Source: Escherichia phage vB_EcoM_WL-3
Strand: one strand, 5' to 3'
Length of the DNA: 64,000 nucleotides
Sequence record: MT968995.1
Shown: piece after piece, positions 34,589 through 61,457 of the stretch
Layout of the letters: each line of letters opens with the position of its first letter
Position numbering within the stretch: position 1 is the stretch's first letter
Notes under the pieces: model-generated
Database searches by the model: none
Seen by the model: the letters and a program-made list of their open reading frames with translations, nothing else
What the model was told of the DNA's origin: nothing
Translations under genes and position numbers: made by a program

Positions 34589-36853
34589 TCATAATTTACA
34601 GGATGAACAATCTTCAGCTTTTGGAGTTTCTATTTCATAATCATCAGTACCAGAACCATCGCGGGTATTATGATAATAGAAATTTTTTCCGCCAAAATAC
34701 CAAAAATACAAAAGGTCATCAATCATTATTGACATTGGAACCTTTCCTTTAGGGAAGATTTGGGGGTCATAGTATGTATTCGCTGAAGCTGATTGACATA
34801 CCCATTTCAGCATAATAGCTACTTGCGTAAGATAAGGTTTATTACCTTTCTTAGCTAATTTCCATGTATAATCATAGAGGTCTATGTTATGCTCAATATT
34901 GGGCACGACTTGATTAAAGGAACCCTCTTTTGATTCTTTAACACTTACCGGTCCACGTGGAGGCTCGATACCGTTTGTACTGTTAGAAACTTGGGAAGAT
35001 GACTCACATGGCATAAGTGCTGATAATGTGCTATTACGGATGCCAAAGAGCTTAAGGTCTTCCCGCAGCGACGACCAGTCACAAACGTATTTTGGAGCTG
35101 CGATTTGGTCAATCTTTTTATTGTACCAGTCGATAGGTAATTCGCCTCGAGACCAACGAGTGTCTGAATAATATTCGCAAGGTCCTTTTTCTTTGGCGAG
35201 CTTAATGGATGCTTTAATGAGTCCATACTGTAATCTCTCAAATAGTTCATGTGTTAAATCGTTAGCATCTTCATAAGAAGCAAAGTTACTTGCCAGCCAA
35301 GCTGCATAGTTAGTAACACCTACACCAAGGTTACGACGCCTTTTAGCTTTTTCTGCTTCAGGAACTGGATATCCTTGGTAATCCAAAAGATTATCAAGAG
35401 CACGAACTTGGACTTCTGCCAATTCATTAATTTTATCTTGGTCTTGCCAATCGAAGTTATCCAACACAAATGCAGATAACGTGCACAATCCAATTTCAGC
35501 ATCAGGGCTATTCACATCATTTGTTGGAATAGCAATTTCACAGCACAAGTTACTCTGACGAATAGGTGCCTTTTCACGAATAAACGGAGTATAGTTATTC
35601 GTATTATCAATGAACTGCACATAAATCCTTGCTGTTCCTGAACGTTCAGTCATGAGCAATTCAAATAGTTCACGGGCTTTAATACGCTTTTTGCGAATAT
35701 TAGGGTCTTTTTCTGCTGCTTCGTATAATTCACGGAAACGGTCTTGGTCTTTAAAATAAGAATAATAAAGCTCGCCACCCATTTCATGCGGACTGAACAA
35801 AGTAATGTAATCGTTCTTTCCGAATCGTTCCATCATCAAATCATTCAGCTGAACACCATAATCCATATGACGGATACGGTTTTCTTCTACACCTTTGTTA
35901 TTTTTCAAAACGAGAAGATTTTCAACTTCCAAATGCCAAATAGGATAATAAGCAGTAGCAGCGCCGCCACGAATTCCACCCTGTGAACATGATTTAACAG
36001 CAGTCTGAAAATGTTTCCAAAAAGGAATAACGCCAGTATGACGTACTTCACCTGTGCCAATCTTAGAACCTTCAGCACGAATCATACCAACGTTAATGCC
36101 AATTCCAGCTCGTTTAGAAATATACTCAACAATTGAAGCAGAAGCCTTATTAATAGACTTTAATGAATCACCTGCCTCAATAACAACACATGAACTAAAC
36201 TGTCGAGTTGGAGTACGACAACCAGCCATAATAGGAGTTGGCAGTGAAATCTGTCGAGTGGATACTGCTTCATAAAAACGGATAACGTGTTTTAATCTAT
36301 CAACAGGTTCATCTTGATGCAATGCCATTCCAATAGTCATAAATGCAAACTGTGGAGTTTCATAAATTTGACCAGTGGTTTTATCTTTAACAAGATATTT
36401 TTCTTTTAATTGCATCGCCCCGGAATAAGTAAATTCCATATCCCGCTCGTGCTTAATTTTTGATTCTAAAAATGTAATTTCTTCTGCAGAATATTTTGAC
36501 AACAATTCAGGGTCGTATTTACCTTCATTTACACAGTAAGAAATATGGTCAATAAATGAACGCGGTTCATATTGCCCATAAACATGCTTACGAAGAGCGA
36601 ACATTAAACAGCGTGCAGCTACGTATTGATAATCAGGCTCTTCAACTGAAATAGAATTCGCAGCAGCCTTAATTACAATGGTTTGAATGTCATCAGTTGT
36701 CATTCCATCACGGAGATATGATTTAATATTTTCATATAATTCATAAGGATCTACTGATGTTCCTTCAGCTGCCCAAGATAAAACTTTAATAATTTTTTGT
36801 GGGTCAAAGCTCTGAGAAACACCACTACTTTTGATAACATTAATTAATTGCAT
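34589..36853 (-). CDS. nrdA: Ribonucleotide reductase large subunit NrdA
   Basis: 754-aa ORF with class Ia RNR active-site cysteines. Confidence 0.95.
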   Translation of the reverse strand: MQLINVIKSSGVSQSFDPQKIIKVLSWAAEGTSVDPYELYENIKSYLRDGMTTDDIQTIVIKAAANSISVEEPDYQYVAARCLMFALRKHVYGQYEPRSFIDHISYCVNEGKYDPELLSKYSAEEITFLESKIKHERDMEFTYSGAMQLKEKYLVKDKTTGQIYETPQFAFMTIGMALHQDEPVDRLKHVIRFYEAVSTRQISLPTPIMAGCRTPTRQFSSCVVIEAGDSLKSINKASASIVEYISKRAGIGINVGMIRAEGSKIGTGEVRHTGVIPFWKHFQTAVKSCSQGGIRGGAATAYYPIWHLEVENLLVLKNNKGVEENRIRHMDYGVQLNDLMMERFGKNDYITLFSPHEMGGELYYSYFKDQDRFRELYEAAEKDPNIRKKRIKARELFELLMTERSGTARIYVQFIDNTNNYTPFIREKAPIRQSNLCCEIAIPTNDVNSPDAEIGLCTLSAFVLDNFDWQDQDKINELAEVQVRALDNLLDYQGYPVPEAEKAKRRRNLGVGVTNYAAWLASNFASYEDANDLTHELFERLQYGLIKASIKLAKEKGPCEYYSDTRWSRGELPIDWYNKKIDQIAAPKYVCDWSSLREDLKLFGIRNSTLSALMPCESSSQVSNSTNGIEPPRGPVSVKESKEGSFNQVVPNIEHNIDLYDYTWKLAKKGNKPYLTQVAIMLKWVCQSASANTYYDPQIFPKGKVPMSIMIDDLLYFWYFGGKNFYYHNTRDGSGTDDYEIETPKAEDCSSCKL

Positions 36854-37170
36854 AAGTCCTCAACTTGAAAATCGTCTTTAAACAATCGGTTAACTATATG
36901 AGCTATTATATCACCATGACACGGCTTTGGTTTACATGTGCATCCTAGCCTCATTCCACGTAAAGGCTCTAAATGTGCTTTAGTTATTTCTCCGGATTTA
37001 ATTCGACGTATAAAATCTTTTTTGAATAATTCAATGGCAACCTCCCGGCTGCCAGCATCTTTACCGACGTAATTTCCCCAAAATGTACCACGGTGAATAT
37101 TAACATCAAAGTCGGATTTATATTTATTCACTACCTGGCATAGACGGCCCGCGCGGTGATAATTCGTCAT
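36844..37170 (-). CDS. nrdA.1: Small Cys-containing protein (nrdA.1 position)
   Basis: 108-aa ORF. Confidence 0.5.
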
Positions 37171-37387
37171 ATTGTTTTTCCGTTAAAACAGTAATATCAT
37201 AGTAACAATCTGAAGAAGTTTTAACTGTAGAAATTTTATTATCAAAATACTCACGAGTCATTTTATGAGTATAATATTTTTTGCCATAAATGATAATAGG
37301 CTGATTTGGTCCTGGAACTTCTAACTCACTTGGATTAGGAAGTGTAAAAAGAACTGCACCAGAAGTATCTTTAAATCGTAAAATCAT
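37124..37387 (-). CDS. nrdA.2: Small protein (nrdA.2 position)
   Basis: 87-aa ORF. Confidence 0.5.
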
Positions 37388-37410
37388 ATATCCTCACAGT
37401 TAATAATTAA

Positions 37411-37722
37411 TTACACCGCCATTTTTCCTTTAATAGGAGGGTGTGATTCGTAACCTTTAAGAACGAAATCTTTAGGCCTGAGTTTAAGAACATATTCCAA
37501 TTGTTCTTTAGTAGAAAGATAGCGGAATTTATAAGGCAATCCGCCTATTACCAGTTCACAAAGCTCTTTAGGTTCACGACGTAAAATTTCTTTACATTGT
37601 TCCACGTGGTTCATATAGATATGAGTATTACCGCCAGAAAATATCAAATCTCCAGGAATAAGATTACACATCTTAGCTACAATATGAACCAACGCAGCAT
37701 ATGATGCAATATTAAATGGAAG
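37411..37722 (-). CDS. td: Thymidylate synthase exon 2 (codons 184-286 plus stop)
   Basis: Exon begins CTTCCATTT directly after intron-terminal ATG; encodes the TS C-terminal part. Confidence 0.9.
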   Translation of the reverse strand, partial: LPFNIASYAALVHIVAKMCNLIPGDLIFSGGNTHIYMNHVEQCKEILRREPKELCELVIGGLPYKFRYLSTKEQLEYVLKLRPKDFVLKGYESHPPIKGKMAV

Positions 37723-38738
37723 CATTATGTTCAGATAAGGTCGTTAATCTTATCCCGGAATTATATCCAGCTGCATGTCACCATACAGATCAGACTATAT
37801 CTCCATCTTGATGAAGCAAGATGTCTATCGTTTCGAGTCACTTGACCCTACTCCCCAAAGGGATAGTCGTTAGGCATTTATGTAGAACCAATTCCATTTA
37901 TCAGATTTTACACGATAAGTAACTAATCCAGACGAAATTTTAAAATGTCTAGCTGCATCTGCTGCGCATTCAAAAATAATCCCGTCGCATGAAATCTTTT
38001 TAATATTACTAGGCTTTTTGCCTTTCATCTTTTCTGATATTTTAGATTTAGTTTTGTCCGAATGCTTATGATTAAAGAATGAATTATTTTCACCTGAACG
38101 ATTTCTGCATTTACTACAAGTATAAGCAGAAGTTTGTATACGAACACCGCACTTACAAAATTTGTGTTTTTCTGGATTCCATCGTCCGTTTTTACTTCCG
38201 GGTTTACCGTAAAGAGCTTTCCGAGCATCAAGGCCAAGCTTAAGCATCTTAGCTTTAACAGTTTCAGAGCGTTTCTTAATAATTTCTTCTTTTAATGGAT
38301 GTACAGAATATGTATCACCAAACGTTGCATCAGCAATATTATATCCATTAATTTTAGAATTAAGCTCTTTAATCCAAAAATTTTCTCGTTCAATAATCAA
38401 ATCTTTCTCATATGGAATTTCTTCCAAAATAGAGCATTCAAATACATTACCGTGTTTGTTAAAAGACCTTTGAAGTTTTATAGAAGAATGGCATCCTTTT
38501 TCTAAGTCTTTAAAATGCCTCTTCCATCTCTTTTCAAAATCTTTAGCACTTCCTACATATACTTTATTGTTTAAAGTATTTTTAATCTGATAAATTCCAC
38601 TTTTCATAAATACCTCTTTAAATATAGAAGTATTTATTAAAGGGTAGTCCTACAATTTAGCACGGGATTGTCTACTAGAGAGGTTCCCCGTTTAGATAGA
38701 TTACAAGTATAAGTCACCTTATACTCAGGCCTCAATTA
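37723..38738 (-). mobile_element. Group I self-splicing intron in td (1016 nt) carrying the I-TevI ORF
   Basis: Exon 1 ends in T (…TTGGGT); intron starts TAATTGAGGCCTGAGTATAAGG and ends ATG (terminal G); length 1016 nt; excision joins a 286-codon TS frame. Confidence 0.9.
37870..38607 (-). CDS. I-TevI: I-TevI GIY-YIG homing endonuclease (intron-encoded)
   Basis: 245-aa ORF inside the intron; N-terminal GIYQI...VYVGSA GIY-YIG motif; C-terminal zinc finger CKCG...CSKC. Confidence 0.9.
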   Translation of the reverse strand: MKSGIYQIKNTLNNKVYVGSAKDFEKRWKRHFKDLEKGCHSSIKLQRSFNKHGNVFECSILEEIPYEKDLIIERENFWIKELNSKINGYNIADATFGDTYSVHPLKEEIIKKRSETVKAKMLKLGLDARKALYGKPGSKNGRWNPEKHKFCKCGVRIQTSAYTCSKCRNRSGENNSFFNHKHSDKTKSKISEKMKGKKPSNIKKISCDGIIFECAADAARHFKISSGLVTYRVKSDKWNWFYINA

Positions 38739-39287
38739 ACCCAAGAACACGTCAACACTTCTTTGATACCACTGTAAATCCAAATATCCATTACGCACAT
38801 TAAACTGATAGAACATATGACAAGGTGGTAATGCCATATATTTAAGTTCAGCTGGATTCCACGCAGAAACAATTTGACGCCTATCATTCGGTAGTTTTTT
38901 AATACGATCAATAACTTCTACAATTTGGTCTACACCGCCAAAATCACGCCATTGTTTTCCGTAAATTGGACCAAGTTCACCACTATGATATCCTAAATCT
39001 TTTGCTTGGTTTTCGTAATTTTCATCCCAGACTGTTTTGCCTTGAATTAATGAATCGTGTTGAATTAATCGTAAATCATTGACATTTGTGCTTCCTGATA
39101 AAAACCAAAGGAGCTCAGCAATGCAAGCTTTCCAGGCGAGCTTCTTAGTCGTTACTGCAGGAAAACCTTTAGTTAAATCCCAGCGTAATTTAGTACCGAA
39201 CAAAGCAATTGTTCCTGTGCCTGTTCGGTCATCGGTTTCATAGCCATTTTCAAAAATGTCTTTAATTAAATCTTGGTATTGTTTCAT
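38739..39287 (-). CDS. td: Thymidylate synthase exon 1 (codons 1-183)
   Basis: N-terminal TS sequence; the ORF stop TAA is the first three intron nucleotides. Confidence 0.9.
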
Positions 39288-39332
39288 TTAGTACCTTATA
39301 TAAATTATAATACATTTTATGAAGCTAAATAA

Positions 39333-39692
39333 TCAATACGGTTTAGCATCAAATTTTCTTTCGATTTCAGGAGTGAAATATAATTCTTTACCACGTTTGG
39401 AAAAACGACCAATAATATGATAATTATTCTCATCAAACGTGATATTGCCAATATCCATAGCTTTCAACCAAATATCGATATTTCTATCCAGCTTTATATC
39501 AAAATTCCAATACGGAGAACTATTACCGAAAATACTGCAAGCGGATTCAGTGAAACAACTGCTATAAATTTTGTCTTTGGGAACTACTAATTGATAGACG
39601 CCTTTAATAAACTGAGGACCCTGCCATTTTGGTTGTTTCGCGTCTTTTTCTAATAGAATAGGGTAATAATTAAAGTTCATATTTTCCGCCAC
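39333..39692 (-). CDS. Hypothetical protein inserted between frd and td
   Basis: 119-aa ORF filling a roughly 410-bp spacer; no recognisable domain. Confidence 0.5.
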   Translation of the reverse strand: MAENMNFNYYPILLEKDAKQPKWQGPQFIKGVYQLVVPKDKIYSSCFTESACSIFGNSSPYWNFDIKLDRNIDIWLKAMDIGNITFDENNYHIIGRFSKRGKELYFTPEIERKFDAKPY

Positions 39693-39700
39693 GCGTTATT

Positions 39701-40285
<585 letters not shown>

Positions 40286-40528
40286 TCAAAACCCCCTTTC
40301 AATAAACCATTCAGCGGCTTTATTAGCATCAAAGAATAATTCTTCATATGTCTTTTCTTTGTTTTCAAAAACTGTCACACAAACACGTTGACATTCTCCA
40401 CAGTATTCTTCTGACATACTCAAAGCGTCAGAAAACATTTCATTAAATTCATTTAAATCAGGATTATGCAATGCGTTAAAAATTGCATAATCGAATTCAT
40501 CATTCATAAATTCAAATACAAAAATCAT
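40286..40528 (-). CDS. frd.1: Small acidic protein (frd.1 position)
   Basis: 80-aa ORF. Confidence 0.5.
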   Translation of the reverse strand: MIFVFEFMNDEFDYAIFNALHNPDLNEFNEMFSDALSMSEEYCGECQRVCVTVFENKEKTYEELFFDANKAAEWFIERGF

Positions 40529-40872
40529 ATTATCTCATAATATAAAGGATCAGGAACATATCCACTGGCTTTAATCATTTTAATTAACGTTAACATTCCT
40601 TTATTAACTGCTCGTGAAATTTCATCAAAAACTTCATCACTAAAAAGTTCTAACACGCCCTTCTGAACTTTTAATTTACACCCAACAATTTCGTCATCGC
40701 CTATAGTAAATTCGTTTCCGCCAATTCCACCGAAAAACTTAATTGCACCAGTCAACTGTCTTCCACGAGAATATGGGTCGTGTGATAAAGTAATATGAGT
40801 CACCCCAGGTACAGTTTTAAATTGGCAACGGATGTTTACTTGGGCAATTCCAGTTACGTGAATGTCAGACAT
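40525..40872 (-). CDS. frd.2: Small protein (frd.2 position)
   Basis: 115-aa ORF. Confidence 0.5.
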   Translation of the reverse strand: MSDIHVTGIAQVNIRCQFKTVPGVTHITLSHDPYSRGRQLTGAIKFFGGIGGNEFTIGDDEIVGCKLKVQKGVLELFSDEVFDEISRAVNKGMLTLIKMIKASGYVPDPLYYEII

Positions 40873-40882
40873 AATATTTTCC

Positions 40883-41125
40883 TCAAACAGACTTTTTCAC
40901 AATTTTCCAATCAGCTTTAAACTGATCGACGTCAGAATGATAAATCCAGAACCCTGCGCTTTCTCCATCCTCATAAAGAGGGCATCCATCGCATTCATCT
41001 TCCCATCCCATGCCACGTAAAAGATGTTCAGCTTTTTCAACAAGTTCAGAATCTTTACCAATGATATTAAAATACCATTTACCTCTAACTTCTGAATCTT
41101 TGATGCTTTGGCGTTGTAATCTCAT
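40883..41125 (-). CDS. frd.3: Small protein (frd.3 position)
   Basis: 80-aa ORF; early promoter with stem-loop upstream (41136-41180). Confidence 0.5.
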   Translation of the reverse strand: MRLQRQSIKDSEVRGKWYFNIIGKDSELVEKAEHLLRGMGWEDECDGCPLYEDGESAGFWIYHSDVDQFKADWKIVKKSV

Positions 41126-41179
41126 TTTATTCTCCTTAGTTGATAGGGTAATAGTATCACACTACTACCCTACTGTAAA

Positions 41180-41560
41180 CTACTTTTTGAAAGTTTTTCG
41201 CAAAAGTTCAATGATTTCATCTACATTGTTTTCGTCTACAATGCAATGAATTTTTGTTACGCCAGAAATCTTGTCTTCGACTTCATCTTCTTCAGAAGTC
41301 GGTTCTTTATACTCGCGGAAACAATGAAATTCGTCTTCACAAATTTCTAAAAGTCTATCTTTGAGGTAAAAATGTTTTCCATTTGCGCATTCAATGTGTT
41401 TTACTGCTTTATATCCATTAGCGACAGAAACTTCTTTAACTTCAAACCATCCGCCATTATCTCGAATAGCTTTAACTATTGATGAATTAGAACGTGGGCT
41501 ATAATTAATAAATGTATCAATAAGTCTTGGAACAAGTTCATACTTTCTACCAGTATACAT
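41180..41560 (-). CDS. Hypothetical Cys/His-containing protein
   Basis: 126-aa ORF preceded by hairpin-GAGGAAAA-ATG. Confidence 0.5.
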   Translation of the reverse strand: MYTGRKYELVPRLIDTFINYSPRSNSSIVKAIRDNGGWFEVKEVSVANGYKAVKHIECANGKHFYLKDRLLEICEDEFHCFREYKEPTSEEDEVEDKISGVTKIHCIVDENNVDEIIELLRKTFKK

Positions 41561-41604
41561 TGTGTTTTCCTCATTTTAACGGGGCTGTAATAGCCCCTTG
41601 ATAA

Positions 41605-41835
41605 TTATTGTTCAATCAGTCCCATATAAAATTCTGCATCTTCAGAATCCATGCCATCACAATATTCATTAGCCATAAAGCGGGTGAGGTCTTCAAGAGG
41701 ACCTTCAATGACAATAGAAAAATTGCAATAATTGGGATCATCATGAATACTTGTGATACTAAGTTCAGGATAACGATTACGAATAATTTCTTCAATATAT
41801 TCAAAATCAACGATGTCAATATCAACTTTAGCCAT
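41605..41835 (-). CDS. Small strongly acidic hypothetical protein
   Basis: 76 aa from ATG 41835 with AAAGAGGAAA RBS; the ORF-track start at 41856 would translate the RBS. Confidence 0.5.
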
Positions 41836-41869
41836 ATTATTTTCCTCTTTAATCATCAGCAGTATTGCC

Positions 41870-41958
41870 GATAGTTGTATAGTACTATAGAAGAACAGAG
41901 GTGTAAACAGTTTTGTGAAAAAATTTTTGAAATAAAAAAGGGGACCTCTAGGGTCCCC
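41870..41958 (-). promoter_or_regulatory. Early promoter plus terminator hairpin cassette (PeSL-like)
   Basis: On the - strand: hairpin ggggaccctagaggtcccc, T-run, GTTTAC, TACTATAC; homologous to 58279-58368 and 62140-62190. Confidence 0.5.
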
Positions 41959-41980
41959 AATTAATTAGTAATATAATCTA

Positions 41981-42889
41981 TTAAAGGTCATTCAAAAGGT
42001 CATCCAGGTCCGTGTCATCAGCACTAGATGAACTGCCAGAGCTTGAGCTCATAAAATCATCTTCAGTTTTTGTTTTAAAGTCATCAACATTAAATGCATC
42101 CAAATCATCAGCAACTTTATCGGCTTTCTTAGCGGCAGTTGCTGCGGCACCACCCATAGCAGCAGTTCCCATAACTTGACTGAATTTAGTGCTCAGTTCT
42201 TCAAACGATTTGAATTTATCTTTAGAAGTCATTTCAGAAAGGTCAACCATTTGTTCGAACAGTTCTTTCTGGAAAGATTCATCATCAATGTTTGGAATCG
42301 CAGATTGATTCAGGAATTTAGATTCGTCGTAGTTACTAAAACCAGAAACTTGTTTAACTTTCAGTACAAAGTTAGCACCTTCCCACGGACAAGTTACATC
42401 AACCGGAGTTTCACCCATTTCAACATCAACGGCAATCATTGCATTGATTTTATCCCAGATTTTCTTACCGAAACGGTATTTAAATACTTTACCTTCATTT
42501 TCTGGAGCAGCTGGGTCTTTTACTACAAGAATGTTAGCCCAGTAAGAAGTTTTACGTTTAACAAGACCGTACTCTTTATTGTCAGTGTTGTACAAATCAT
42601 TTTTACTGATGTATTGACATACTGGACAAGAATCGTAATCACCGTGGGTAGATGAACAGTTTTCAATATACCATTTACCATTTTTCTTGAAACCGTGATT
42701 TACAAGAATTGCGAATGGTGCTTGTTCATCATTTTTAGACGGAAGAAAACGAATTACTGCTTGACCGTTACCCGCATTATCGAGTTTCAGTTTCCACTCG
42801 CCTTTATCTTCAGAAGAAAAACCACCTTTATTTCCAGCCAGTTTAGCCATTTGTGCAGCGAGTTCAGCAGTAGATTTACGTTTAAACAT
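41981..42889 (-). CDS. 32: gp32 single-stranded DNA-binding protein
   Basis: 302-aa ORF; zinc-binding Cys/His cluster; acidic C-terminal tail; T4 position. Confidence 0.95.
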
Positions 42890-42960
42890 TTTTATTTCCT
42901 TTTTAATTTAATTAACAGTTGGTGCTATGACGATGTATGACCTCATAGCTGGTCAGTGAG
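42890..42960 (-). promoter_or_regulatory. Gene 32 translational operator (A/U-rich leader plus upstream pseudoknot-forming element)
   Basis: On the - strand: TGACCAGCTATGAGGTCATACATCGTCATAGCAC then TTAATTAAATTAAAAAGGAAATAAAA-ATG; late promoter TATAAATA at 42973-42980. Confidence 0.6.
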
Positions 42961-42988
42961 ATAATTATAATCTATTTATAATAAGCAA

Positions 42989-43642
42989 TTAATACTTGCA
43001 TGATTTCACAGTTTCAATGAAAACACTTTTAGCTTTCTGTGAATCAATATTTAAAATTTTTCTATAAGCTTTTAACTTTATAGAATAATTATTCCAGACT
43101 AAATTATCAGTCTGTTCATCATGTTTATCAATTATATTTAAAAACGAATCAAGCAAGATAAACGTCTCAAACGAAATTATATTCGATTGAAGCAGTTTAA
43201 AAATATAACTTGATTGAACTTTTGGATTATATTCAAAGATTTCTTTAAAAGCAGAAACTTCAACTTTTTTACTAAAATAATAAATGTTGCGAATATCTTC
43301 TTCAAACTTAAATTTAATTTGCTTTAAGCGTCCGATATATTCACGATAAAACACAAGTGCATCAGCGTCAGAGATGTCACCAATCCAAGCATCCTGGTTA
43401 GCAACAAGATTGCTTATAAAGATTAAAGCAAGTTCCTTTAATTTATATTTTTCTGATAACTTCTGGAAAAAATACTTATCCCTTCGCTTTTGATAAGCGG
43501 CATCAGACACCCGCATGCACCAATTATACTTAATTACATCATACTTTCCATTCATATGTTGTTTTATCATTAAGTATAATTTATAAACTGATTTACCATC
43601 AATGTATCTTTCACCACCAGCAGGCATGCGGAGTTTAATCAT
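42989..43642 (-). CDS. 59: gp59 helicase loader
   Basis: 217-aa ORF; T4 size and position. Confidence 0.9.
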   Translation of the reverse strand: MIKLRMPAGGERYIDGKSVYKLYLMIKQHMNGKYDVIKYNWCMRVSDAAYQKRRDKYFFQKLSEKYKLKELALIFISNLVANQDAWIGDISDADALVFYREYIGRLKQIKFKFEEDIRNIYYFSKKVEVSAFKEIFEYNPKVQSSYIFKLLQSNIISFETFILLDSFLNIIDKHDEQTDNLVWNNYSIKLKAYRKILNIDSQKAKSVFIETVKSCKY

Positions 43643-43977
43643 AGTAGAAAATCTAATGTATTAGTTTTTTCACAACGAACAACAGAAGGACGTAAAAGAT
43701 TTTCGTCAATAGCTTCTGACTGAATTTTTTCAATTATACCCGAAGGAATAAATTTAGCAAATTGAGTTTCAGGAATAGAATTTTCTTCCAAGAATGCTGT
43801 TGTAGCTTCAAGATAACTCATTCCAAATTCTTCTACCATTTTTTCAATAATAAATCCATTTTCTTGGCGGTCAAGAAGCTTTGCAATTTCATCCTTTTCT
43901 TTCTTAATTGAAAGTTCTTTTTCTGAAAGACCGGTCTCATCGACCGGACGAATATCATTTAGAGAAAACTGTGTCAT
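43639..43977 (-). CDS. 33: gp33 late transcription co-activator
   Basis: 112 aa from ATG 43977; T4 size and position. Confidence 0.85.
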   Translation of the reverse strand: MTQFSLNDIRPVDETGLSEKELSIKKEKDEIAKLLDRQENGFIIEKMVEEFGMSYLEATTAFLEENSIPETQFAKFIPSGIIEKIQSEAIDENLLRPSVVRCEKTNTLDFLL

Positions 43978-44224
43978 AAAGTTCAACTACCTCTTCAGTT
44001 TCAGCTTCAAACACATCACGGTTATCTTTATGATACAAAGCTAACAAACGATTAAACATCTTACCATCAACGCCAAGTTCATCTTTGGCGCGAATTCGAA
44101 TATCTTTAATCAATTCATTATAACCAGAAATTTTCAGTTTATGATCAGATGCTTCTTTGATAAATTTAGCCAAGTCTTCGCCATGGATAGCTTCATCAAA
44201 TTCGACCATTTCTTTTTTAGCCAT
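43955..44224 (-). CDS. dsbA: DsbA double-stranded DNA-binding protein
   Basis: 89-aa ORF; T4 size and position. Confidence 0.85.
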   Translation of the reverse strand: MAKKEMVEFDEAIHGEDLAKFIKEASDHKLKISGYNELIKDIRIRAKDELGVDGKMFNRLLALYHKDNRDVFEAETEEVVELYDTVFSK

Positions 44225-44232
44225 TATTCACC

Positions 44233-45150
44233 TCAAAATTCATTAATGCTATTAGTTAATTTAGAAAGACCCGCTTTTACAAAATATGAATAAATTTTGC
44301 CACGCGGTGGTAATTTATATGAATTATAGTAATTCACAATGTTTGAAGCAATATTATCAGGAATATAATCAAAATCAATTAGAACTAAATTTTCTTTATA
44401 TCGATTATATTCAGATTCAGTGAGAAGCACCTTAGCTTGCTCACGGTCATTAGCAATAGCTTCAACAACAGATGTTTTCATTGAAGGAGTTCGTTCACCT
44501 TCAACTCTGGTAAACCAAAAGTCAGATCGTACTTTAACTGAAGCAACGTTATCCTTTTTATCACCTTTAAGGATTTTAGTCATACAGTCAATTTCAGCAG
44601 AACCGCTTTTAATTTTAACCCATTTCTTGTGCATCGGTGACCACTGCTTAACATTTGGGTATTTGTGAAGTTGAGTAAAGTCACCATCCGATGAAATGAT
44701 TAAAATCTTGTGTCCTTCTAAAGAGAACTTTTTAACAAGAACAGCAATGTGGTCATCTGCTTCATACTTGTCAATATCCATAACAATGTATGGCATATAA
44801 GCTTTCAATTCATCTATAACTTTATGACTGGATTCAAAATAACCTTCCCAGTCCCAAGTAGATTCTTCTCGTGCTTTTCCACGGTTTTTCTTATAATAAT
44901 AAGCAAAATCACGACGCCAGTATCCAGATTTCGCGTTATCGATACACAGTACAATTTTAGTGTATCCAAGAGTTTTCGCTTTTTTGACATTAAACTTAAT
45001 TGAGTTCAATATCAAATGACGAACCATTGATAAATTAATTTTTTCTTTATCTGGGAAGTTTACCAAAGCAGTTGAAAGCGCAATTTGACTAAAGTCAATT
45101 AAGCAGATTCCTTCTTTGTAATCTTCATCCAGCATCATTTCTAAATCCAT
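44233..45150 (-). CDS. rnh: RNase H (5'-3' exonuclease, FEN-1 family)
   Basis: 305 aa from ATG 45150; the ORF-track start at 45165 is a TTG. Confidence 0.9.
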   Translation of the reverse strand: MDLEMMLDEDYKEGICLIDFSQIALSTALVNFPDKEKINLSMVRHLILNSIKFNVKKAKTLGYTKIVLCIDNAKSGYWRRDFAYYYKKNRGKAREESTWDWEGYFESSHKVIDELKAYMPYIVMDIDKYEADDHIAVLVKKFSLEGHKILIISSDGDFTQLHKYPNVKQWSPMHKKWVKIKSGSAEIDCMTKILKGDKKDNVASVKVRSDFWFTRVEGERTPSMKTSVVEAIANDREQAKVLLTESEYNRYKENLVLIDFDYIPDNIASNIVNYYNSYKLPPRGKIYSYFVKAGLSKLTNSINEF

Positions 45151-61389: not shown

Positions 61390-61457
61390 CATTTTCTGTT
61401 CCTCCGTAGTTGATAGGGTAATAATACCACAGAGGAACAGTCTTGTAAACAACTTTT

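What the first reader, a model, noticed from the sequence alone, without database searches (positions are those of the whole stretch)
41126..41965. Variable early module between frd.3 and gene 32: two unassigned ORFs including a strongly acidic 76-aa protein
Between frd.3 and gene 32 there are two ORFs (126 aa at 41180-41560; 76 aa at 41605-41835) bounded by promoter/stem-loop cassettes at 41136-41180 and 41870-41958. In T4 this neighbourhood carries a seg-type homing endonuclease next to gene 32 (from memory), so it is a known plasticity hotspot. The 76-aa product is very rich in Asp/Glu ([18 protein letters not shown]...[14 protein letters not shown]), a composition typical of DNA-mimic or host-factor-inhibitor phage proteins. 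The 126-aa product contains scattered Cys/His residues.
Basis: partly seen in the sequence, partly recalled or inferred. Interest (0 to 1): 0.5.

Follow-up and report, generated by a model that had tools for sequence, protein, structure and literature searches.

The report
Known T4 early genes frd.3 and frd.2

Summary
The ORFs, the flanking promoter/stem-loop cassettes and the acidity of the 76-aa protein are all real. The labelling is wrong.

- **Gene identities.** The 126-aa ORF (41180-41560, - strand) is Pfam FRD2, which is T4 frd.2. The 76-aa ORF (41605-41835) is Pfam Phage_FRD3, which is T4 frd.3.
- **Synteny.** The order frd.1-frd.2-frd.3-32 is the same as in T4. T4's segG lies on the other side of gene 32 and is absent from this window.
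- **Distribution.** Both genes occur in more than 700 sequenced T-even-type phages, and 129 records carry a Frd.3 that is at least 99% identical.
- **Transcription.** The pair forms a unit starting at a T4-type early promoter just after the gene 32 terminator.
- **Frd.3.** It models confidently as a small ferredoxin-like alpha/beta protein (pI 4.05, net charge -15). It resembles no characterised protein.
- **Frd.2.** It models as a FeoA/SH3-like barrel, an acidic linker and an invariant C-terminal helix, in line with a 2025 paper.
- **Dispensability.** Published T4 screens show both genes are dispensable in laboratory hosts.

An anti-host binding role for Frd.3, including DNA mimicry, is neither refuted nor supported beyond its composition. 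This is already known and of low interest.

The parts
41930..41958 (-). Intrinsic terminator of gene 32 (GGGGACC-CTAGA-GGTCCCC followed by TTTTTTATTT). It forms the stem-loop half of a PeSL-type terminator/promoter composite.
   Evidence: Terminator scan. RNA fold of -14.3 kcal/mol. Identical in T4.
41879..41908 (-). T4-type early promoter of frd.3 (GTTTACA-N17-TACTAT).
   Evidence: 12 motif sites against 0.65 expected. The hexamers are conserved in T4 while the spacer diverges. It matches the T4/PST PeSL consensus TTTACW-N17-TAYWAT (PMC4122927).
41854..41873 (-). Small hairpin in the predicted frd.3 5' leader. Significance uncertain.
   Evidence: Fold of -8.9 kcal/mol, z -4.0. T4 carries two substitutions in the 3' arm, one of which breaks a pair.
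41605..41835 (-). frd.3 CDS: 76 aa, acidic, ferredoxin-like alpha/beta protein. Shine-Dalgarno GAGG at 41847-41844.
   Evidence: Pfam Phage_FRD3, 129 bits, E 9e-38. 88% identical to T4 Frd.3. AF2 pLDDT 92.8. dN/dS 0.27-0.46.
41581..41597 (-). Intercistronic GC hairpin between frd.3 and frd.2 (GGGGCU-AUUAC-AGCCCC), with no U-tract.
   Evidence: Fold of -11.4 kcal/mol, z -2.6. Present in T4 with a different loop; absent in RB69 and Melville.
41180..41560 (-). frd.2 CDS: 126 aa, made of a FeoA/SH3-like barrel (about residues 1-85), an acidic disordered linker (about 86-99) and an invariant C-terminal segment (100-126).
41139..41180 (-). Second early-promoter cassette (GTTTACA-N17-TACTAT, 41180-41151) with an overlapping 14-bp hairpin (41173-41143) and the leader TATTACCCTATCAAC. 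It drives frd.1. The frd.2 stop codon TAG shares its G with the -35 element.
   Evidence: near-identical in T4; -17.8 kcal/mol, z -3.2. A second copy of the leader lies at 61409-61423.
40883..41125 (-). frd.1 (DUF5417). Context only.
   Evidence: Pfam DUF5417, E 4e-33. T4 annotation.
41981..42889 (-). Gene 32 (ssDNA-binding protein). Context only.
   Evidence: Translation. T4 synteny.

Best explanation
Window 41126-41965 is the conserved frd.3-frd.2 early transcription unit of a T4-like (Tequatrovirus) phage.

Shown:
- Directly after the gene 32 terminator, a T4-type early promoter (41908-41879) precedes frd.3, followed by a short GC hairpin and then frd.2.
- The 3' end of frd.2 runs into a second early-promoter/hairpin cassette that precedes frd.1.
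- Both ORFs are full-length members of Pfam Phage_FRD3 and FRD2. They are collinear with T4, under purifying selection, and present in more than 700 sequenced relatives.
- Frd.3 models with high confidence as a single ferredoxin-like beta-alpha-beta-beta-alpha-alpha domain of very high negative charge.
- Frd.2 models as a FeoA/SH3-like barrel joined by an acidic disordered linker to an invariant C-terminal helix.

Inferred, at about 35% probability: both are accessory host-takeover factors made in the first minutes of infection. They would work by stoichiometric binding rather than catalysis. Frd.3 would use its conserved acidic surface (D7, D10, E16 and the E57-Y-x-x-G-M-D-x-E65 motif) to occupy a basic surface on a host or phage protein, possibly a nucleic-acid-binding one. 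Frd.2 would use its SH3-like barrel to bind a protein or RNA partner. Their benefit would be host- or condition-specific, which would explain why they are dispensable in laboratory strains.
For: - Identity: Pfam FRD2 at 113.4 bits and Phage_FRD3 at 129.1 bits, against cut-offs of 29 and 28. PHROG 622 and 1764.
- Synteny: T4 gene order frd, frd.1, frd.2, frd.3, 32, segG, 59. Collinear blastn, window 41130-42952 to T4, 89% identity.
- Distribution: 732 phage records for Frd.3 and 758 for Frd.2.
- Selection: dN/dS 0.22-0.46.
- Promoters and terminator; PeSL consensus from PMC4122927.
- Expression in T4: frd.2 was used as an RT-qPCR control (PMC6070864). The frd.3 transcript is among the most abundant NAD-capped T4 RNAs (bioRxiv 10.1101/2024.04.04.588121).
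- Charge.
- Dispensability: frd.2 amber mutant is viable. CRISPRi-ART scores frd.3 as Not Fit. HIDEN-SEQ recovered insertions at 18/18 TA sites in frd.3 and 24/25 in frd.2.
Against: - No direct evidence exists for any binding partner.
- No frd gene is named in the main text of the HIDEN-SEQ preprint, including its anti-defence hits. In the one conditional table read, frd.3 has log2FC 0.02.
- CRISPRi-ART calls frd.2 'Fit' (score 0.83, p 0.027). This conflicts with the amber-mutant and transposon data and may be a polar or off-target effect.
- High acidity is common among small T4 early proteins. The neighbouring ORF80 also has pI 4.05.
- Nothing in the Frd.3 fold is specific to inhibitors.
Confidence: 0.85

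Rival explanations
1. One reading: a variable, unassigned module next to gene 32 whose acidic 76-aa product is a DNA mimic that inhibits a host DNA-binding protein such as a restriction or defence factor.
For: - Net charge -15, pI 4.05, 25% Asp+Glu, comparable from my own knowledge to Ocr, Arn, Ugi and AcrIIA4.
- Early expression.
- Dispensable in laboratory hosts, as anti-defence genes usually are.
- The slot next to gene 32 differs in RB69, Melville and CLB_P2.
Against: - The ORFs are neither unassigned nor variable within Tequatrovirus.
- There is no PADLOC match.
- No frd gene is named in the HIDEN-SEQ main text, including its anti-defence hits.
- A 76-aa globular ferredoxin-like domain is not elongated, so it would have to oligomerise to imitate more than a few base pairs of DNA.
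Confidence: 0.12
2. Frd.2 is an LSm/Hfq-like RNA-binding protein, in the family of GoF and MotB.1, that modulates stability or translation of early mRNAs. Frd.3 would be its acidic partner or regulator, co-expressed from the same transcript.
For: - Kim et al. 2025 predict an LSm-like N-terminal barrel for Frd.2, and GoF(D25Y) stabilises mRNA (PMC12152347).
- My model has the five-strand barrel.
- frd.3 and frd.2 are adjacent in four of five genera and almost abut in Melville and Entb_45.
Against: - hhalign of the Frd.2 profile against T4 GoF and MotB.1 is insignificant (probabilities 0.8% and 7%).
- Wild-type GoF and MotB.1 had no RNA effect in that paper.
- RB69 keeps frd.2 without frd.3 at the frd.3 slot, and CLB_P2 separates the two genes.
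Confidence: 0.15
3. Frd.2 and Frd.3 are accessory components of the phage nucleotide-synthesis/replication machinery (the dNTP synthetase complex around Td, Frd, Nrd and gp32), as their position in the td-frd-32 cluster might suggest.
For: The position between frd and 32 is conserved in several genera. Association of gp32 with the T4 dNTP-synthesising enzymes is established knowledge, cited here from memory and not tested.
Against: - Each gene has its own early promoter rather than being co-regulated with frd/td or 32.
- There is no fold similarity to nucleotide-metabolism proteins.
- There is no fitness effect in laboratory hosts.
- T4 hyperplastic regions commonly sit between core genes without any functional link (PMC4122927).
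Confidence: 0.1

Closest known systems
T4 Frd.3 (NP_049853; Pfam PF05798 Phage_FRD3; 'Uncharacterized 8.8 kDa protein in frd-Gp32 intergenic region')
   Same: - Full-length profile match and 88% identity.
- Same position immediately downstream of the gene 32 terminator, with the same promoter and Shine-Dalgarno sequence.
- 129 database phages carry a copy that is at least 99% identical.
   Different: All 10 amino-acid differences from T4 fall in residues 30-40, the beta2-beta3 hairpin. Synonymous divergence is also raised there (dS 0.62 against 0.10), which indicates a recombinational patch from another allele.
T4 Frd.2 (NP_049852; Pfam PF03197 FRD2), described as an LSm-like-fold protein by Kim et al. 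2025 (PMC12152347)
   Same: Profile match, synteny, the same predicted barrel + linker + C-terminal helix, and an identical C-terminal 28 residues.
   Different: - Only 66% identical overall, because the N-terminal barrel is a different allele.
PeSL (promoter-early stem-loop) composite motifs of T4-like phages (Arbiol et al. 2010, PMC2839356; Comeau et al. 2014, PMC4122927)
   Same: The 41958-41879 element is a stem-loop terminator followed by an early promoter. It fits the published T4/PST consensus TTTACW-N17-TAYWAT.
   Different: - The 41180-41139 cassette has its hairpin inside the promoter rather than upstream of it.
- Within Tequatrovirus this pair of cassettes brackets a conserved module, not a variable one.
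Acidic phage DNA-mimic inhibitors (T7 Ocr, T4 Arn, PBS2 Ugi, AcrIIA4)
   Same: Small size, pI about 4, early expression, non-essential.
   Different: There is no sequence or detectable fold similarity. The fold is compact and ferredoxin-like. No target is known.

Membership tests
Pfam PF05798 Phage_FRD3 (T4 Frd.3) | Full-length match to the family HMM above the gathering score | tested here: met
   129.1 bits against a cut-off of 28.1. Residues 8-83 of the 83-aa ORF match profile positions 1-75 of 75.
Pfam PF05798 Phage_FRD3 (T4 Frd.3) | Position downstream of gene 32 and upstream of frd.2, as in T4 | tested here: met
   T4 annotation. The intergenic alignment is 95% identical.
Pfam PF03197 FRD2 (T4 Frd.2) | Match to the family HMM above the gathering score | tested here: met
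   113.4 bits against a cut-off of 29. Residues 28-126 match profile positions 2-96 of 96.
Pfam PF03197 FRD2 (T4 Frd.2) | Invariant C-terminal motif GVTKIHCIVDENNVDEIIELLRKTFKK | tested here: met
   Identical to T4. 456 of 727 phage records are at least 99% identical over the 28-aa C-terminal query, which contains this motif.
LSm/Hfq-like fold family GoF / MotB.1 / Frd.2 (Kim et al. 2025) | N-terminal bent five-stranded antiparallel beta-sheet | tested here: met
   AF2 strands at 6-9, 38-47, 50-58, 63-65 and 81-83, with pLDDT mostly above 85.
LSm/Hfq-like fold family GoF / MotB.1 / Frd.2 (Kim et al. 2025) | Structural similarity to Sm/Hfq proteins specifically | tested here: not met
LSm/Hfq-like fold family GoF / MotB.1 / Frd.2 (Kim et al. 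2025) | Detectable sequence-profile relationship to GoF or MotB.1 | tested here: inconclusive
   hhalign probabilities of 0.8% (GoF) and 7.2% (MotB.1), tested against single sequences only. The paper itself reports no BLASTP-level similarity.
LSm/Hfq-like fold family GoF / MotB.1 / Frd.2 (Kim et al. 2025) | RNA binding | not testable with these tools
   Needs EMSA or CLIP.
DNA-mimic proteins (Ocr, Arn, Ugi, AcrIIA4 type) | Strong net negative charge | tested here: met
   Net charge -15 over 76 aa, pI 4.05.
DNA-mimic proteins (Ocr, Arn, Ugi, AcrIIA4 type) | Fold or sequence similarity to a known mimic | tested here: not met
DNA-mimic proteins (Ocr, Arn, Ugi, AcrIIA4 type) | Carboxylates arranged like DNA phosphates, and binding to a DNA-binding protein | not testable with these tools
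Binding needs an experiment.
seg-type GIY-YIG homing endonuclease next to gene 32 (T4 segG) | An endonuclease ORF adjacent to gene 32 | tested here: not met
   T4 segG lies between 32 and 59. The window has 35 bp there (42953-42987) and no such ORF on either side.
PeSL composite promoter-terminator motif | Stem-loop followed by an early promoter matching TTTACW-N17-TAYWAT | tested here: met
   Hairpin at 41958-41940, then TTTACA-N17-TACTAT at 41907-41879. Consensus from PMC4122927.
PeSL composite promoter-terminator motif | Association with gene-content differences between close relatives | tested here: inconclusive
   There is no content difference from T4 inside the bracketed module. Across genera the slot varies, and indels relative to T4 lie just outside it at 40294-40815 and 42953-42987.

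The most novel reading that the evidence does not exclude
Frd.3 is a previously unrecognised anti-defence or host-factor inhibitor. It would work as a compact acidic decoy for a nucleic-acid-binding surface. The exchangeable beta2-beta3 hairpin (residues 26-44), which occurs as discrete alleles among T-even phages, would set target specificity or allow escape from host recognition. Frd.2 could be a co-factor delivered from the same early transcript.
Probability: 0.2. Interest if true: 0.5.

Novelty: already known. Interest (0 to 1): 0.15.

Why it matters
As found, this is a correction. The locus is the standard frd.1-frd.2-frd.3-32 arrangement of T4, with sequences already present in hundreds of database genomes. 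Its remaining value is that frd.2 and frd.3 belong to the conserved but unexplained early genes of the best-studied lytic phage. frd.2 was the only 'Fit' gene of unknown function in one T4 screen, and the frd.3 mRNA is a prominent NAD-capped transcript. Assigning either protein a host target would add a piece to the T4 takeover programme. Nothing in this window makes that more tractable than in T4 itself.

Tried and rejected
- **Remote homology for Frd.3.** An exhaustive HMM search of 1.84 billion representative proteins gave 8 hits: short (30-75 aa) Frd.3-type proteins, plus two matches to long proteins (1068 and 2044 aa) that I assumed spurious without inspecting them. A PDB profile search gave nothing below E 0.88. 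NCBIfam and PADLOC gave nothing. BFVD returned only other 'uncharacterized 8.8 kDa' proteins.\n- **RelB-antitoxin match.** The weak Pfam hit on the 83-aa ORF (18 bits against a cut-off of 27) was rejected. It is sub-threshold and partly covers residues upstream of the real start.\n- **Paralogy.** Frd.3 shows no relationship to the neighbouring acidic ORF80, to the RB69 ORF in the same slot, or to Frd.2 (hhalign probabilities below 3%).\n- **Zinc site in Frd.2.** Rejected, because the Cys and His residues are not conserved as a motif.\n- **Positive selection on the Frd.3 hairpin.** Rejected for the comparison with T4, because dS is raised in the same patch. This points to recombination.\n- **Foreign origin by composition.** GC is 0.32-0.35 across the module, like its neighbours.\n- **Rfam.** No family matched in 36000-44500 at E <= 0.1.\n- **Charge-surface analysis.** Not possible, because model coordinates are not exposed to scripts.\n- **HIDEN-SEQ conditional tables.** I read only part of them. 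The stored file is truncated, and the frd rows of most conditions were not retrieved.

Full report
**What is at the coordinates**

The window is a T4-like phage, and all genes around the finding are on the - strand. The two ORFs exist as described: 41180-41560 (126 aa) and 41605-41835 (76 aa), the latter inside a longer 83-aa ORF that starts at 41856. The 76-aa start is the real one for three reasons. GAGG lies 8 nt upstream of it. The Pfam profile begins at that Met. T4 has ATA where the window has the upstream ATG.

**Identity**

- The 126-aa protein matches Pfam FRD2 (113 bits, E 9e-33).
- The 76-aa protein matches Pfam Phage_FRD3 (129 bits, E 9e-38).
PHROGs agree.

The RefSeq T4 record gives the order frd, frd.1 (DUF5417), frd.2, frd.3, 32, segG, 59. 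segG sits between 32 and 59 in T4, not between frd.3 and 32. The window has only 35 bp at that place (42953-42987). Window 41130-42952 is collinear with T4 at 89% identity.

**How common it is**

- The 901-bp region matches 520 phage records by megablast. The best are 98% identical.
- tblastn finds Frd.3 in 732 records, 129 of them at least 99% identical. It finds Frd.2 in 758 records. The records are phages of Escherichia, Shigella, Yersinia, Salmonella, Citrobacter and Enterobacter.
- An exhaustive HMM search of 1.84 billion representative proteins with the Frd.3 profile gave 8 hits. Six are short (30-75 aa). The five whose sequences I retrieved align with Frd.3. The other two are matches to long proteins (1068 and 2044 aa), which I assumed spurious without inspecting them.
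- BFVD structure matches show the fold also in Erwinia, Serratia and Klebsiella T4-like phages, all unannotated.
- dN/dS against four or five relatives is 0.22-0.46 for both genes. Both are therefore real coding genes under purifying selection.

**Locus comparison**

| Phage (genus) | Arrangement next to gene 32 |
|---|---|
| T4 (Tequatrovirus) | Same module as the window |
| RB69 (Mosigvirus) | Unrelated 75-aa ORF in the frd.3 slot; frd.2 kept |
| Melville (Gelderlandvirus) | Two extra ORFs between 32 and frd.3 |
| CLB_P2 (Dhakavirus) | Order 32-X-frd.2-Y-frd.3 |
| Entb_45 (Kanagawavirus) | 32-frd.3-frd.2, almost abutting |

The idea of a plastic slot next to gene 32 is therefore fair at the inter-genus scale. 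It does not hold for this window against T4. The real indels against T4 lie just outside the finding:

- 40294-40815 carries ORF80 plus most of ORF115 (DUF7247), between frd and frd.1.
- 39291-39695 carries a 119-aa ORF between td and frd.
- segG is missing.

**Regulatory anatomy**

The consensus scan finds TTTACA-N17-TACTAT on the - strand at 41907-41879 and at 41179-41151. It also finds one intrinsic terminator at 41958-41940, directly after gene 32. The extended motif GTTTAC-N17-19-TANNAT occurs 12 times in the window against 0.65 expected by shuffling, 11 times on the coding strand. These sites are therefore members of a genuine promoter class.

The motif fits the T4/PST early-promoter consensus TTTACW-N17-TAYWAT published for PeSL (promoter-early stem-loop) composites (PMC4122927). 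The terminator-plus-promoter at 41958-41879 has exactly the PeSL layout. Against T4, the terminator and both hexamers are identical while the spacer has diverged.

The second cassette is nearly identical to T4's. It contains a 14-bp hairpin overlapping the promoter (-17.8 kcal/mol, z -3.2). The frd.2 stop codon shares a base with its -35 element. A 6-bp GC hairpin without a U-tract lies between frd.3 and frd.2. It is kept in T4 and absent in RB69 and Melville.

The inferred transcription path is: P-early, then frd.3, hairpin and frd.2, then a second P-early followed by frd.1. Expression in T4 is documented. frd.2 served as an RT-qPCR reference gene (PMC6070864). frd.3 is among the most abundant NAD-capped T4 transcripts (bioRxiv 10.1101/2024.04.04.588121). 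The -10 and start region here are identical to T4's.

**Frd.3 protein**

It has 25% Asp+Glu, net charge -15 and pI 4.05, making it the most acidic of 93 minus-strand ORFs in the window. AF2 with 21 homologs gives pLDDT 92.8 and pTM 0.81. The topology is beta1(2-8)-alpha1(11-21)-beta2(26-33)-beta3(38-45)-alpha2(47-58)-alpha3(64-71), with a final one-residue bridge. This is a ferredoxin-like alpha/beta sandwich.

Residues conserved even in the most distant homologs are D7, D10, Y13, E16 and the motif E57-Y-x-x-G-M-D-x-E65. The beta2-beta3 hairpin is the variable part. All 10 differences from T4 lie in residues 30-40 (P about 8e-10). dS is also raised there (0.62 against 0.10), which points to a recombinational patch rather than point-wise positive selection.

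**Frd.2 protein**

AF2 gives pLDDT 84. The model has a barrel with two helices inserted after beta1 (residues 1-85), a disordered acidic linker (pLDDT below 50 at residues 90-97) and a C-terminal helix at 113-124.

The N-terminal domain is mosaic, only 66% identical to T4. The last 28 residues are identical in 456 of 727 records. Third-codon positions are conserved there across genera as well, probably because this DNA doubles as the upstream part of the next early promoter.

**Function**

Nothing characterised is homologous to either protein. The published T4 data are:

- The frd.2 amber phage plates normally.
- CRISPRi-ART scores frd.3 as Not Fit (-0.49, p 0.86) and frd.2 as weakly Fit (0.83, p 0.027).
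- HIDEN-SEQ recovers insertions at 18/18 TA sites in frd.3 and 24/25 in frd.2, so both are non-essential.
- No frd gene is named in the HIDEN-SEQ main text, including the anti-defence factors it reports.

My best mechanistic reading, at about 35% probability, is that both are accessory early host-takeover proteins acting by stoichiometric binding. Frd.3 would act through its conserved acidic surface and Frd.2 through its SH3-like barrel. The benefit would be host- or condition-specific. DNA mimicry by Frd.3 is one version of this (about 12%). It rests on composition alone.

**Verdict**

The sequence observations are accurate, but the annotation frame is wrong. The locus is the known, conserved T4 frd.3-frd.2 early unit flanked by known PeSL-type cassettes. 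It is already known, and interest is low (0.15). The open question of what Frd.2 and Frd.3 do is a T4 question and not a feature of this window.

Noticed in passing
window 40286-40872 (- strand): Two ORFs absent from T4 sit between frd and frd.1. One is an 80-aa acidic protein (pI 4.05, phrog_3183, no Pfam). The other is a 115-aa DUF7247 protein. Window 40294-40815 has no T4 counterpart, so this is the real gene-content difference in the neighbourhood.
   Followed up: partly
window 39291-39695 (- strand): A 119-aa ORF with a GTG start (phrog_1928, no Pfam match) is inserted between td and frd. In T4 those two genes overlap by 4 bases.
   Followed up: partly
window 42953-42987: Only 35 bp separate gene 32 from gene 59. 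T4 carries the GIY-YIG homing endonuclease segG here.
   Followed up: yes
window 41180-41265 (3' end of frd.2): The last 28 codons of frd.2 are conserved at the nucleotide level, including third positions, even against other genera. The peptide is identical in 456 of 727 phage records, although only 12 records match the whole protein at 99% or more. The stop codon overlaps the -35 of the next early promoter, which suggests a dual protein/promoter constraint or recombinational homogenisation.
   Followed up: partly
L001 (T4) 1912-1982, corresponding to window about 41126-41139: T4 has an unannotated 22-codon hydrophobic mini-ORF (MFAPYIMAAVMLVCLYLLIKAC) with its own Shine-Dalgarno sequence between frd.2 and frd.1. 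The window lacks this 88-bp segment.
   Followed up: no
window 61409-61450 (- strand): A second copy of the early-promoter cassette with the same leader TATTACCCTATCAAC as the one upstream of frd.1. The CRISPRi-ART off-target lists suggest the same leader/RBS is shared by T4 motB.2, 30.8, trna.4, sp and frd.1.
   Followed up: partly
window 41716-41748 (Frd.3 residues 30-40): All 10 amino-acid differences between this Frd.3 and T4 Frd.3 fall in an 11-residue stretch of the beta2-beta3 hairpin. Synonymous divergence is also raised there. Database identity bands are discrete (>=99%: 129 records; 80-90%: 261 records), which suggests cassette-like alleles.
   Followed up: yes
L002 (RB69) 2263-2490; L005 (CLB_P2) 1425-2728: RB69 carries an unrelated 75-aa ORF in the frd.3 slot. 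Dhakavirus CLB_P2 has the order 32-X-frd.2-Y-frd.3.
   Followed up: partly
window 36000-44500; td exons at 38736-39287 and 37411-37725, I-TevI-like ORF at 37870-38607: td is split by an insert that encodes a 245-aa I-TevI-type ORF, as in T4. Even so, Rfam reported no group I intron or any other family at E <= 0.1.
   Followed up: no
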